A DNA stretch of 6,053 bases, taken from a virus (Duplodnaviria; Heunggongvirae; Uroviricota; Caudoviricetes). Where the stretch lies: IMG/VR virus record IMGVR_UViG_2531839104_000005, one strand, 5' to 3'. A program made the translations under genes and the position numbers. Below the pieces are notes generated by a model. The model did no database searches. It was not told where the DNA came from and saw only the letters and a list, made by a program, of their open reading frames with translations. Below, piece by piece: positions 1 through 6,053 of the stretch; the first letter of the stretch is position 1; each line of letters starts with the position of its first letter.

Positions 1-3646
<3,646 letters not shown>

Positions 3647-3666
<20 letters not shown>

Positions 3667-4966
3667 TCTCCCGCATATTGCCAGCATGGCTTTTAATGAG
3701 CCGCTGATGCTTGAACCCGCCTATGCGCGGGTTTTCTTTTGTGCGCTTGCAGGCCAGCTTGGGATCAGCCGCCTGACGGATGCAGTATCCGGCGACAGCC
3801 TGACTGCCGGAGAGGCACCCGCGGCGCTGGCGTTATCCGGTGATGATGACGGACCACGACAGGCCCGGAGTTATCAGGTCATGAACGGCATCGCCGTGCT
3901 GCCGGTGTCCGGTACGCTGGTCAGCCGGACGCGGGCGCTGCAGCCGTATTCGGGAATGACCGGTTACAACGGCATTATCGCCCGTCTGCAACAGGCTGCC
4001 AGCGATCCGATGGTGGACGGCATTCTGCTCGATATGGACACACCGGGCGGGATGGTGGCGGGAGCATTTGACTGTGCTGACATCATCGCCCGTGTGCGAG
4101 ACATAAAACCGGTATGGGCGCTGGCCAACGACATGAACTGCAGTGCAGGTCAGCTGCTTGCCAGCGCCGCCTCCCGGCGTCTGGTCACGCAGACCGCCCG
4201 GACAGGCTCCATCGGCGTCATGATGGCTCACAGTAATTACGGTGCTGCCCTGGAGAAACAGGGCGTGGAAATCACGCTGATTTACAGCGGCAGCCATAAG
4301 GTGGATGGCAACCCCTACAGCCATCTACCGGGTGATGTCCGGGAAACACTGCAGTCCCGGATGGATGCAACCCGCCGGATGTTTGCGCAGAAGGTGTCGG
4401 CATATACCGGCCTGTCCGTGCAGGCTGTGCTGGATACCGAGGCTGCAGTGTACAGCGGTCAGGAGGCCATTGATGCCGGACTGGCTGATGAACTTGTCAA
4501 CAGCACCGATGCGATCACCGTTATGCGTGATGCACTGGATGCACGTAAATCCCGTCTCTCAGGAGGGCGAATGACCAAAGAGACTCAATCAACAACTGTT
4601 TCAGCCACTGCTTCGCAGGCTGACGTTACTGGCGTGGTGCCAGCGACGGAGGGCGAAAACGCCAGCGCGGCGCAGCCGGACGTGAACGCGCAGATCACCG
4701 CTGCGGTTGCGGCAGAAAACAGCCGCATTATGGGGATCCTCAACTGTGAGGAGGCTCACGGACGCGAAGAACAGGCCCGCGTGCTGGCAGAAACCCCCGG
4801 TATGACCGTGGAAACGGCCCGCCGCATTCTGGCCGCAGCACCACAGAGTGCACAGGCGCGCAGTGATACTGCGCTGGATCGTCTGATGCAGGGGGCACCG
4901 GCACCGCTGGCTGCAGGTAACCCGGCATCTGATGCCGTTAACGATTTGCTGAACACACCAGTGTAA
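3647..4966 (+). CDS. C: Head maturation protease / scaffold protein gpC (S49-family serine peptidase), 439 aa, GTG start
   Basis: GTG at 3647 is preceded by a strong Shine-Dalgarno AGGAGGAG at 3635-3642 and lies 20 nt inside the 3' end of B. Translation (M)TAELRNLPHIASMAFNEPLMLEPAYARVFF... matches lambda gpC, and 1320 nt equals the lambda C length. The putative catalytic Ser166 (NCSAG) is at nt 4142-4144. The track ORF 3512..4966 is the same frame extended upstream to an ATG with no ribosome-binding site. Confidence 0.9.
4361..4966 (+). CDS. nu3: Scaffolding protein Nu3, nested in-frame in the 3' third of C (internal initiation at ATG 4361), about 201 aa
   Basis: In lambda, Nu3 is translated from an internal in-frame start within C and shares its C-terminus and stop. 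ATG at 4361 (MDATRRMFAQKVSAYTGLSV...) is in the C frame and sits at the expected offset from the B and C boundaries. No obvious strong Shine-Dalgarno is visible, so the call rests mainly on homology to the lambda arrangement. Confidence 0.7.
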   Translation: MDATRRMFAQKVSAYTGLSVQAVLDTEAAVYSGQEAIDAGLADELVNSTDAITVMRDALDARKSRLSGGRMTKETQSTTVSATASQADVTGVVPATEGENASAAQPDVNAQITAAVAAENSRIMGILNCEEAHGREEQARVLAETPGMTVETARRILAAAPQSAQARSDTALDRLMQGAPAPLAAGNPASDAVNDLLNTPV

Positions 4967-4975
4967 GGGATGTTT

Positions 4976-5308
4976 ATGACGAGCAAAGAAACCTTTACCC
5001 ATTACCAGCCGCTGGGCAACAGTGACCCGGCTCATACCGCAACCGCGCCCGGCGGATTGAGTGCGAAAGCGCCTGCAATGACCCCGCTGATGCTGGACAC
5101 CTCCAGCCGTAAGCTGGTTGCGTGGGATGGCACCACCGACGGTGCTGCCGTTGGCATTCTTGCGGTTGCTGCTGACCAGACCAGCACCACGCTGACGTTC
5201 TACAAGTCCGGCACGTTCCGTTATGAGGATGTGCTCTGGCCGGAGGCTGCCAGCGACGAGACGAAAAAACGGACCGCGTTTGCCGGAACGGCAATCAGCA
5301 TCGTTTAA
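4976..5308 (+). CDS. D: Head decoration protein gpD, 110 aa
   Basis: ATG at 4976 is preceded by AAGGGA (4965-4970) at about 5 nt spacing. The product [110 protein letters not shown] matches lambda gpD. Stop TAA at 5306-5308. The track ORF starts two codons upstream at ATG 4970, which has no room for a ribosome-binding site. Confidence 0.93.
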
Positions 5309-5325
5309 CCTGACCCTTCATCACT

Positions 5326-5350
5326 AAAGGCCGCCTGTGCGGCTTTTTTT
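5326..5350 (+). terminator. Terminator-like GC hairpin plus T-tract in the D-E intergenic gap
   Basis: Seen directly: GGCCGC (5329-5334), loop CTGT (5335-5338), GCGGC (5339-5343), then T7 (5344-5350). The upstream AAA (5326-5328) can pair with the first Ts to extend the stem. This has the architecture of an intrinsic terminator or an RNA-stabilising hairpin and sits 13 nt upstream of the E start codon. Confidence 0.55.
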
Positions 5351-5363
5351 ACGGGATTTTTTT

Positions 5364-6053
5364 ATGTCGATGTACACAACCGCCCAACTGCTGGCGGCAA
5401 ATGAGCAGAAATTTAAGTTTGATCCGCTGTTTCTGCGTCTCTTTTTCCGTGAGAGCTATCCCTTCACCACGGAGAAAGTCTATCTCTCACAAATTCCGGG
5501 ACTGGTAAACATGGCGCTGTACGTTTCGCCGATTGTTTCTGGTGAGGTTATCCGTTCCCGTGGCGGCTCCACCTCTGAATTTACGCCGGGATATGTCAAG
5601 CCGAAGCATGAAGTGAATCCGCAGATGACCCTGCGTCGCCTGCCGGATGAAGATCCGCAGAATCTGGCGGACCCGGCTTACCGCCGCCGTCGCATCATCA
5701 TGCAGAACATGCGTGACGAAGAGCTGGCCATTGCTCAGGTCGAAGAGATGCAGGCAGTTTCTGCCGTGCTCAAGGGCAAATACACCATGACCGGTGAAGC
5801 CTTCGATCCGGTTGAGGTGGATATGGGCCGCAGTGCGGCGAACAACATCACGCAGTCCGGCGGCACGGAGTGGAGCAAGCGTGACAAGTCCACGTATGAC
5901 CCGACCGACGATATCGAAGCCTACGCGCTGAACGCCAGCGGCGTGGTGAATATCATCGTGTTTGACCCGAAAGGCTGGGCGCTGTTCCGTTCCTTCACGC
6001 GCTGCCTGCCGGTCAGTCAGCCCCCGGTTTTTTGCATCAATGGCGGCCCGCTT
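5364..6053 (+). CDS. E: Major capsid protein gpE, 3'-truncated by the window end (230 codons present, no stop)
   Basis: ATG at 5364, with a weak GGGA at 5354-5357. Translation MSMYTTAQLLAANEQKFKFDPLFLRLFFRESYPFTTEKVYLSQIPGLVNMALYVSPIVSGEVIRSRGGSTSEF... matches lambda gpE through ...FDPKGWALFRSF (to about nt 5996). The final ~19 codons (TRCLPVSQPPVFCINGGPL) do not match my recollection of gpE; see findings. Confidence 0.9.
   Translation, partial: MSMYTTAQLLAANEQKFKFDPLFLRLFFRESYPFTTEKVYLSQIPGLVNMALYVSPIVSGEVIRSRGGSTSEFTPGYVKPKHEVNPQMTLRRLPDEDPQNLADPAYRRRRIIMQNMRDEELAIAQVEEMQAVSAVLKGKYTMTGEAFDPVEVDMGRSAANNITQSGGTEWSKRDKSTYDPTDDIEAYALNASGVVNIIVFDPKGWALFRSFTRCLPVSQPPVFCINGGPL

What the first reader, a model, noticed from the sequence alone, without database searches (positions are those of the whole stretch)
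5997..6053. Abrupt break from the expected major capsid (E) sequence in the last ~57 nt of the window
The E reading frame matches lambda gpE up to ...IIVFDPKGWALFRSF (codon ending at 5996). From 5997 it reads TRCLPVSQPPVFCINGGPL, whereas lambda gpE as I recall it continues KAVKEKLDTRRGSNSELETAVK.... The DNA (acgcgctgcctgccggtcagtcagcccccggttttttgcatcaatggcggcccgctt) shows no resemblance to the expected ttcaaagccgtcaaggagaagctggat.... The upstream 6 kb is otherwise almost collinear with lambda, so a sharp breakpoint inside an essential HK97-fold capsid gene is unexpected. Possible explanations are a mosaic recombination joint, a deletion junction in a defective prophage, an insertion or cargo boundary, or an engineered or assembly junction. 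The segment also holds a weak CCGG (6009-6012) / CCGG (6024-6027) stem followed by T6 (6028-6033). The frame stays open to the window end, so the downstream content is unknown.
Basis: partly seen in the sequence, partly recalled or inferred. Interest (0 to 1): 0.6.

Follow-up and report, generated by a model that had tools for sequence, protein, structure and literature searches.

The report
Chimeric capsid/tape-measure joint at contig end
The last 56 bases of this draft-assembly contig are the reverse complement of the same prophage's tail tape-measure gene, joined to the capsid gene at a short inverted repeat; this is most likely a chimeric-read or assembly artefact, not a biological feature.

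Summary
The break is real in the sequence. Lambda-type gene E runs from 5364 to 5997 and every database match stops there. The tail is 56 nt (5998-6053), not 57. It is the antisense strand of tape-measure gene H (codons 572-590) of the same O157-type lambdoid prophage, about 5.5 kb downstream (55/56 identical). It is not foreign DNA, an IS end, cargo or a variant capsid allele.

The joint sits at the 3' edge of the best inverted repeat in the whole E-H interval (17/20 matches, 13 exact). It was therefore guided by homology.

The window is an entire 6053-bp contig of an NCBI draft E. coli assembly (ANMC01000099.1), so the joint lies 56 nt from a contig end. The contig reads as a collapsed consensus of two prophage copies. 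Sibling contigs carry normal E. The joint is absent from 5,426 complete E. coli genomes and from the phage, plasmid, IMG/VR, JGI and GTDB collections, and no fusion protein matching it was found.

Best reading (about 0.7): an inverted strand-switch chimera kept as an overhang at the contig end. Rival (about 0.22): a genuine recent 5.5-kb inversion or fold-back that inactivates E and H. Only the reads or a PCR can decide. The proposed CCGG stem plus T6 is not a terminator. Interest is low.

The parts
1..5308 (+). Lambda-type head module upstream of E. It holds terminase large subunit A lacking its first ~61 nt (1-1865), W (1862-2068), portal B (2065-3666), protease/scaffold C-Nu3 (3647-4966) and decoration protein D (4976-5308).
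   Evidence: Gene calls and Pfam families on the identical contig L016. The stretch is 99.8% identical to O157:H7 prophages. All differences from FORC_044 copy X are synonymous. At all 33 sites where FORC_044 copies X and Y differ, the window carries either the X or the Y base, in alternating blocks.
5364..5997 (+). Major capsid gene E: codons 1-211 plus the first base of codon 212 (full length is 341 codons).
   Evidence: Translation. Matches to lambda E and to O157 prophage E end at 5997. Pfam PF03864 is on record for this gene call.
5978..5997 (.). E-side arm of the imperfect inverted repeat at which the strand exchange occurred (GGCGCTGTTCCGTTCCTTCA). The H antisense arm reads GGCGCTGTTCCGTGGCTTCC. 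The window carries the E-type base at all three mismatched positions.
   Evidence: Three-way alignment. It is inverted repeat I1, the top-ranked pair in the E-H interval of the reference prophage. Only 8 of 4.8e7 sense/antisense 20-mer comparisons reach 17/20 and none reaches 18.
5998..6053 (-). Fragment of tail tape-measure gene H, read antisense on the + strand. It covers codons 572-589 and two bases of codon 590 of the 849-codon O157-type allele.
   Evidence: 55/56 identity to H of FORC_044 copy X and of CP010304 on the opposite strand. The minus-strand translation KRAAIDAKNRGLTDRQAA equals H. The only difference is 6051 C, which is synonymous (AAA to AAG).

Best explanation
The joint is most likely not part of the bacterium's genome. 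A DNA strand carrying the sense sequence of E and ending at ...GGCGCTGTTCCGTTCCTTCA paired with the near-complementary 20-nt stretch inside gene H, 5.5 kb away on the same prophage. It was then extended on that template, giving an inverted chimeric molecule (E sense followed by H antisense). This would have happened in vitro during library preparation or amplification, or in a rare molecule. One read, or a few reads, of that molecule were kept as an overhang at the end of a collapsed-repeat contig in a draft assembly. Shown: the identity of both halves, the inverted orientation, the inverted repeat at the joint, the position 56 nt from a contig end, the collapsed-consensus character of the contig, and the uniqueness of the joint. 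Inferred: that read support is low and that the exchange took place outside the chromosome.
For: (1) The window is the whole contig ANMC01000099.1 of GCA_000316505.2, 6053 bp. The 230-aa partial product is on record on one contig only, so the joint lies 56 nt from a contig end.
(2) The tail is antisense H of the cognate prophage type (55/56) and lies about 5.5 kb downstream of E in the closest complete genomes.
(3) The joint falls at the single best inverted repeat among about 4.8e7 possible sense/antisense pairings in that interval. The binomial probability of 17/20 or better is about 3e-8. The event was therefore driven by annealing, not a random misjoin.
(4) Inverted orientation, an intervening gap of a few kb and 2-21 nt of complementarity at the junction are the published signature of strand-displacement chimeras (PMC1855051). 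Library-preparation chimeras also form at natural inverted repeats (PMC10908179).
(5) The H segment beyond the joint is single-copy in closed O157 genomes (places_in_record = 1). A well-supported joint should therefore have been extended, yet the contig stops after 56 nt.
(6) The contig alternates between the alleles of two prophage copies at all 33 diagnostic sites, and each sibling draft contig shows a different patchwork. The sequence here is a merged consensus, not one molecule.
(7) Five sibling contigs that start at the same base or 2 nt later read normal E through this point.
(8) The joint 29-mer is absent from IMG/VR, the GTDB representatives and the JGI metagenomes. The joint is also absent from 5,426 complete E. 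coli genomes, the phage collection and the plasmid collection. No protein like the predicted 408-aa E::antisense-H fusion exists among 5.8e9 clusters.
(9) A comparable fold-back joint inside H occurs in a public SPAdes contig with coverage 0.92, so such chimeras do reach public assemblies.
(10) All other genes in the window are intact and differ from FORC_044 only at synonymous sites. A real event would therefore have to be very recent.
Against: No reads, coverage values or assembly method could be obtained, so low read support is inferred and not shown.

The contig breaks at the joint, whereas sibling contigs run on to 7.1-8.4 kb. A real rearrangement in one of two collapsed prophage copies would also produce that break.

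The contig's left end is cut exactly at the point where the two copies become alike. That looks like a graph-based assembler. In a pure de Bruijn graph, neither a rare chimeric path nor a 50:50 real branch should leave a 56-nt tail on the repeat node. The tail length would fit k = 57 in a node-centric graph, which would imply more than one read.

The only tail difference from known H alleles (6051 C) is synonymous and equals the base of the other (Y-type) H allele. It looks like natural variation, not a read error.

The retained A at 5997 would be a 3'-terminal mismatch on the H template, and proofreading polymerases should remove it.
Confidence: 0.7

Rival explanations
1. A genuine, recent rearrangement in one prophage copy of this strain. 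Recombination or replication template switching between the 20-nt imperfect inverted repeats in E and H inverted the 5.5-kb segment that holds E codons 212-341, FI, FII, Z, U, V, G/T and H codons 1-590. Alternatively it produced a fold-back inverted duplication. Both the capsid and the tape-measure gene would be split and the prophage left unable to build particles.
For: Both halves come from the same prophage type, and the exchange lies at the best inverted repeat available. The contig break coincides with the joint, while sibling contigs read on. That is the pattern expected if one of two collapsed copies diverges here. The tail's single difference from known H alleles is synonymous, as expected for real DNA of this strain. 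In vivo template switching at short inverted repeats is documented in other organisms (ODIRA in yeast: PMC4689423, PMC10766183, listed).
Against: The joint is a singleton. It is absent from 5,426 complete E. coli genomes (about 5,700 copies of this E region) and from every other collection searched, and no fusion ORF is on record. The sequence beyond the joint is single-copy in related closed genomes, yet the contig stops after 56 nt. An inversion needs two exchanges at a repeat with only 13 exact bases, below the length usually needed for efficient RecA recombination (my own knowledge, not tested here). The reciprocal joint could not be looked for.
Confidence: 0.22
2. An exchange between two different prophages in the same chromosome. 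E of one copy joined to H of another copy that lies in the opposite orientation, as copies X and Y do in FORC_044. The result would be a large chromosomal deletion or rearrangement, not a local inversion.
For: FORC_044 carries the two head modules on opposite strands, about 380 kb apart. The window mixes X and Y alleles. Only X-type H carries the repeat arm and matches the tail.
Against: An E(Y)-to-antisense-H(X) joint on one strand would delete about 380 kb of chromosome. No complete genome shows it. The same arguments about the short tail and the singleton status apply.
Confidence: 0.03
3. A natural variant or mosaic capsid allele, or the boundary of an inserted element (IS, cargo gene), with a small terminator hairpin at 6009-6033.
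For: Only the abruptness of the break and the open frame.
Against: The tail is 55/56 identical to antisense H. No E homologue continues this way: the other partial E proteins examined all read KAVKEK, KAVREK or KAVRDK. No terminator-like site is found, and the fold is weaker than the shuffles (z = +1.6).
Confidence: 0.01

Closest known systems
Inverted strand-switch chimeras of strand-displacement amplification (Lasken and Stockwell 2007, PMC1855051) and library-preparation chimeras at natural inverted repeats (PDSM model, PMC10908179)
   Same: The two joined parts are in inverted orientation. They come from the same molecule, a few kb apart, with the sequence in between skipped. The junction sits on a short complementary stretch within the published 2-21 nt range. 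The product is seen once only.
   Different: Nothing is known about how this isolate's DNA was prepared, and MDA is unusual for a cultured isolate. The 3'-terminal A at 5997 is mismatched with the H template. Here the chimera survived into a submitted contig instead of staying a discarded read.
In vivo template switching or recombination at short inverted repeats (for example ODIRA, PMC4689423 and PMC10766183; short-homology illegitimate recombination in E. coli, from my own knowledge)
   Same: A short imperfect inverted repeat lies at the junction, the continuation is inverted, and the event is intramolecular.
   Different: Those events are established from both junctions and from copy number. 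Here only one junction is visible, at a contig end, and it has no population support.
Site-specific invertible segments of phage tail-fibre regions (Gin of Mu, Cin of P1, Pin of e14)
   Same: A DNA inversion within the late or tail region of a prophage.
   Different: No invertase gene is annotated between E and H or next to them in the reference prophage. The repeat lies inside two essential coding sequences, and inversion would destroy both genes instead of switching between alternatives. The arms are imperfect (17/20).
Lambda gpE major capsid protein (PF03864)
   Same: Residues 1-211 are gpE, 98.7% identical to lambda at the DNA level.
   Different: The C-terminal 130 residues are missing and are replaced by a translation of antisense H.

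Membership tests
Chimeric-read / contig-end assembly artefact | The joint links two sequences that are not adjacent in any related genome | tested here: met
   No place in 5,426 complete E. coli genomes covers the joint. It is absent from the phage and plasmid collections, IMG/VR, the GTDB representatives and the JGI metagenomes. Five sibling contigs read normal E.
Chimeric-read / contig-end assembly artefact | The joint lies within about one read length of a contig end | tested here: met
   The window equals the whole contig ANMC01000099.1 (6053 bp), and the joint is 56 nt from its end.
Chimeric-read / contig-end assembly artefact | Inverted orientation, origin on the same molecule, and a short complementary stretch at the junction (strand-switch signature) | tested here: met
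   The tail is antisense H about 5.5 kb from E. The inverted repeat matches 17/20 and is the best pair in the interval. The signature is as described in PMC1855051.
Chimeric-read / contig-end assembly artefact | Support from only one or a few reads, with the normal continuity at full depth | not testable with these tools
   No reads, coverage values or assembly metadata are available for GCA_000316505.2.
Genuine inverted-repeat-mediated inversion in a prophage | Both novel junctions are present (E5'::antisense H5' and antisense E3'::H3') | not testable with these tools
   Only one junction lies in the window, and the other contigs of the assembly could not be retrieved. The predicted reciprocal joint is given.
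Genuine inverted-repeat-mediated inversion in a prophage | The sequence continues into the inverted segment beyond the repeat | tested here: inconclusive
   Only 56 nt of antisense H follow the joint before the contig ends. That segment is single-copy in related closed genomes, so no repeat explains the stop.
Genuine inverted-repeat-mediated inversion in a prophage | Seen in independent assemblies or in related strains | tested here: not met
   The joint is a singleton in every collection searched. No E::antisense-H fusion protein is on record.
Site-specific invertible segment (Gin/Cin/Pin type) | An adjacent serine invertase gene and paired crossover sites that flank a segment with alternative gene ends | tested here: not met
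   No recombinase is annotated from Nu1 to J in the reference prophage. The arms lie inside E and H, and both genes would be truncated.
Intrinsic terminator at 6009-6033 | A G+C-rich stem-loop followed by a T run, more stable than expected from composition | tested here: not met
   The scan finds 0 terminator-like sites in 5300-6053. The minimum free energy is -8.8 kcal/mol against a shuffle mean of -12.9, and 197 of 200 shuffles fold at least as well.
Full-length lambda-type major capsid protein E | A complete PF03864 protein of 341 residues | tested here: not met
   The E sequence ends at residue 211. What follows translates antisense H.

The most novel reading that the evidence does not exclude
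The joint is a real, very recent 5.5-kb inversion (or fold-back inverted duplication) in an O157-type lambdoid prophage. A 20-nt imperfect inverted repeat between capsid gene E and tape-measure gene H mediated it, and it knocks out head and tail assembly in one step. It would be a caught-in-the-act example of prophage decay by microhomology-mediated inversion.
Probability: 0.22. Interest if true: 0.25.

Novelty: not a real feature. Interest (0 to 1): 0.08.

Why it matters
It matters mainly as quality control. The partial 'major capsid protein' on record for this contig (EKW81857.1 / WP_009628944.1) ends in 19 residues that are a translation of antisense tape-measure DNA, and the contig is a merged consensus of two prophage copies. 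Anyone using such draft contigs to study prophage mosaicism or capsid variation would be misled. If the joint proved real, it would be a small but clean example of a prophage inactivated by an inversion at a short inverted repeat. That kind of event is already known.

Tried and rejected
1. I looked for the joint elsewhere. An exact 29-mer scan of IMG/VR, the GTDB representative genomes and the JGI metagenomes gave 0 hits each. Megablast and blastn against complete E. coli genomes, phages and plasmids found no place spanning the joint.

2. I looked for a predicted 408-aa E::antisense-H fusion protein. The homology search returned only spurious antisense-H ORFs, one unrelated fold-back chimera and one E with a duplication.

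3. I tried to reach the source contig through the gpD protein. It returned only long contigs with intact E and H. The exact look-up of the two partial end proteins and then of the partial A product succeeded instead.

4. I searched papers for the WGS accessions to learn the assembly method and found nothing.

5. I treated 6051 C as a possible read error. It is private, but it is synonymous and equals the Y-type allele base, so I regard it as neutral.

6. I tried to infer the assembler from the contig ends. The left end is base-exact at the X/Y divergence, which is graph-like behaviour. The right tail would fit k = 57 in a node-centric graph but not k = 55 in an edge-centric one, and no pure graph model explains a tail on a collapsed node. 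This remained inconclusive.

7. The terminator, IS end or cargo, mosaic allele and invertase readings were rejected.

Full report
**Observation.** The window is a lambda-type head module: A (lacking its first ~61 nt), W, B, C/Nu3, D and the start of E. E starts at 5364. Its translation follows gpE through ...DPKGWALFRSF (codon 211 ends at 5996) and then reads TRCLPVSQPPVFCINGGPL to the last base. Every database alignment stops at 5997. This holds for 91 phage records including lambda (query 1-633 of 5365-6053, which is lambda 6136-6768), for the whole window against phages (1-5997) and for 5,426 complete E. coli genomes (1-5997 at up to 99.8%). No complete genome has a place covering 80% or more of 5850-6053. 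The break is therefore real. Base 5997 (A) is still E, so the foreign tail is 5998-6053, or 56 nt.

**What the tail is.** Searched on its own, 5994-6053 hits the tail tape-measure gene in thousands of E. coli genomes, in lambdoid phages and in phage-plasmids. In records where both genes can be compared (FORC_044, ev099, HK630), the hit lies on the strand opposite to E. In FORC_044 (NZ_CP016755) the window maps to 3,023,019-3,017,023 on the minus strand and the tail to 3,011,479-3,011,538 on the plus strand, inside the 849-codon H gene of the same prophage. Identity over 5998-6053 is 55/56 to this O157-type H allele and only 50-51/56 to the 853-codon alleles. The minus strand of the tail translates to KRAAIDAKNRGLTDRQAA, which is H codons 572-589. 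The single difference, 6051 C, is a synonymous AAA-to-AAG change. The contig therefore reads E sense and then, from a point about 5.5 kb further along the same prophage, H antisense. This is an inversion-type or fold-back joint. It is not foreign DNA.

**Anatomy of the joint.** A three-way alignment shows E sense GGCGCTGTTCCGTTCCTTCA against H antisense GGCGCTGTTCCGTGGCTTCC. Thirteen bases match exactly, then CTTC matches, giving 17/20. The window carries the E-type base at all three mismatches and switches to H-type sequence immediately after the repeat. In the reference prophage this pair (I1; 19 nt, 89%, arms 5,542 nt apart) is the top-ranked inverted repeat of the whole H-E interval. Of 4.8e7 sense/antisense 20-mer comparisons in that interval only 8 reach 17/20 and none reaches 18, and the binomial probability of 17/20 or better is 3e-8. 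The exchange was therefore guided by base pairing. That excludes a random misjoin, scaffolding error or ligation chimera. It fits strand switching or recombination, whether in a cell or in a tube.

**Provenance.** The 230-aa partial product of 5364-6053 is on record as EKW81857.1 / WP_009628944.1, 'major capsid protein, partial [Escherichia coli]'. It occurs on one contig whose length is 6053. The look-up of the partial A product returned that contig, ANMC01000099.1 of GCA_000316505.2, and it is identical to the window. The window is therefore a complete draft contig and the joint lies 56 nt from its end. Other contigs carry the same partial A product: AODZ01000107.1 (8,442 bp) and Logan contigs of 7,071-7,093 bp. 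They start at window position 1 or 3 and all read normal E past 5997 (...TTCAAAGCCGTCAGGGAG...).

**The contig is a merged consensus.** FORC_044 holds two copies of this head module: X (minus strand, 3.02 Mb) and Y (plus strand, 2.63 Mb). They diverge densely up to the base before window position 1, differ at only 33 sites within 1-5997, are identical from 2755 to 6940, and diverge again from about 7074. At each of the 33 sites the window has either the X or the Y base, in the order X, Y, X×19, Y×6, X, Y×2, X, Y×2. Each sibling draft contig shows a different patchwork, and no complete genome matches the window at 100%. The start of the contig, and the ends of the Logan siblings at about 7.07 kb, coincide with the boundaries of the X/Y repeat. 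The contig thus behaves as a collapsed two-copy repeat whose variant sites were resolved arbitrarily. Only X-type H carries the repeat arm and matches the tail. Y-type H matches 42/56 and lacks the arm.

**Uniqueness.** The joint 29-mer has no exact match in IMG/VR, the GTDB representative genomes or the JGI metagenomes. If the inversion existed in a longer contig, E would read on through antisense H for 197 more codons, giving a 408-aa ORF. A search of 5.8e9 protein clusters with the junction and that continuation found only ORFs called on the antisense strand of H (138-176 aa) and two unrelated oddities.

**Most likely mechanism.** Inverted orientation, origin on the same molecule a few kb away, and a short complementary stretch at the junction are the properties Lasken and Stockwell reported for 85% of 475 MDA chimeras, with priming on 2-21 complementary nucleotides (PMC1855051). 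Chimeric reads that form at natural cis- or trans-inverted repeats during sonication and end repair are also documented (PMC10908179). I infer that such a molecule yielded a read, or a few reads, that overlapped the E reads and stayed as an unextended overhang at the contig end. Three observations make this more probable than a fixed rearrangement. First, the contig stops 56 nt past the joint although that H segment is single-copy in closed O157 genomes. Second, the joint is a singleton. Third, the rest of the module is intact, with only synonymous differences. A public SPAdes contig with coverage 0.92 carries an analogous fold-back joint inside H: sense H to L001 7632, then antisense from 6577, with a 5-nt overlap. 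So such products do enter public assemblies.

**What does not fit neatly.**
- The break of the contig at the joint, where siblings read on, is also what a real rearrangement in copy X would cause.
- The contig's left end is cut at the exact base where X and Y converge, which suggests a graph assembler. No pure de Bruijn model puts a 56-nt tail on a collapsed node, whether the side branch is rare or 50:50. The length would fit the last k-mer containing 5997 for k = 57, which would imply more than a single read.
- 6051 C is absent from all H copies in 5,426 genomes and from IMG/VR (0 hits against 26 with T). It is nevertheless synonymous and equals the Y-type base, so it looks like natural variation.
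- The A at 5997 would be a terminal mismatch during priming on H.

For these reasons I keep a genuine inverted-repeat-mediated inversion or fold-back at about 0.22. In vivo template switching at short inverted repeats is a known process (for example PMC4689423 and PMC10766183).

**Rejected readings.**
- Terminator at 6009-6033: no terminator-like site is found, and the fold is weaker than the shuffles.
- IS end, cargo boundary or host gene: the tail is H.
- Allelic or mosaic capsid: all other partial E proteins examined continue KAV(K/R)(E/D)K.
- Site-specific invertible segment: the reference prophage has no invertase gene between E and H or beside them, and the arms lie inside two essential genes.

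**Verdict.** The feature is an E::antisense-H chimeric joint at a contig end. It is most probably an artefact (0.7). If real, it is an ordinary, already known kind of event. Interest is low. Only the reads or a PCR can settle the question.

Noticed in passing
window 1-5997 (33 sites, e.g. 2, 26, 101-785, 950-1211, 1355, 1379, 1601, 2290, 2751, 2754): At every site where the two FORC_044 prophage copies X and Y differ, the window has one or the other base, in alternating blocks. Sibling draft contigs (L012, L014, L015) show different patchworks. The contig looks like a collapsed two-copy repeat consensus, although real gene conversion between prophages is not excluded.
   Followed up: yes
window 1; L012 1; L013-L015 1 (= window 3): Independent NCBI and Logan contigs all begin at the same base or 2 nt later, 61-63 nt into terminase gene A. 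This is exactly where prophage copies X and Y stop being densely divergent (differences at -1, -2, -5, -17, ...). It is a reproducible repeat-boundary break in draft assemblies.
   Followed up: partly
L043 (ENA ERZ13692101, NODE_99_length_1688_cov_0.924407), joint near 490-494: Another inverted (fold-back) joint, this one inside tape-measure gene H. H sense is followed by H antisense from about 1 kb further on, with a 5-nt overlap, in a SPAdes contig with coverage below 1. It yields a 240-aa TMP_2::antisense fusion protein (P0036).
   Followed up: partly
P0038 (NCBI 'major capsid protein E', 309 aa, on a 2,219-bp contig): This E protein has a 50-residue tandem duplication (FDPKGWALFRSFKAVREKLDTRRGSHSELETAVKDLGKAVSYKGMYGDVAI, twice) that begins at the same FDPKGWALFRSF stretch. 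It may be another assembly artefact in this region.
   Followed up: no
L013 (Logan SRR19332628_122) about 5857-5960; three similar contigs not shown: E is split into 180-aa and 148-aa ORFs, and the contig is 22 nt longer than its siblings. This suggests a short insertion or frameshift in E in a related prophage.
   Followed up: no
antisense strand of H; L001 about 6484-7075 (+); proteins P0031-P0035: The antisense frame of H entered by the joint stays open for 197 codons. Stretches of it are annotated as 138-176-aa hypothetical proteins in some ENA and NCBI assemblies. These are probably spurious calls.
   Followed up: partly
E codons about 199-241 (window about 5958-6086 equivalent); cluster of P0001: The 1,077-member cluster that holds this protein includes partial E proteins ending at residues 199, 200, 209, 224, 233 and 241 among those read. 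They come from several draft assemblies, so contigs often break in this part of E. This is probably because E alleles (KAVKEK, KAVREK, KAVRDK) begin to differ here.
   Followed up: no
window 5330-5350: The D-E intergenic hairpin GCCGC-CTGT-GCGGC followed by T7 is visible by eye and looks terminator-like, but the consensus scan of 5300-6053 listed no site.
   Followed up: no
L001 10239-10816; L044 12022-14633, 15668-16410, 17237-20702: In FORC_044 both prophage copies carry annotated frameshifts: the Z-like tail gene in X, and H, the C40 peptidase gene and J in Y. Both copies may already be defective.
   Followed up: no
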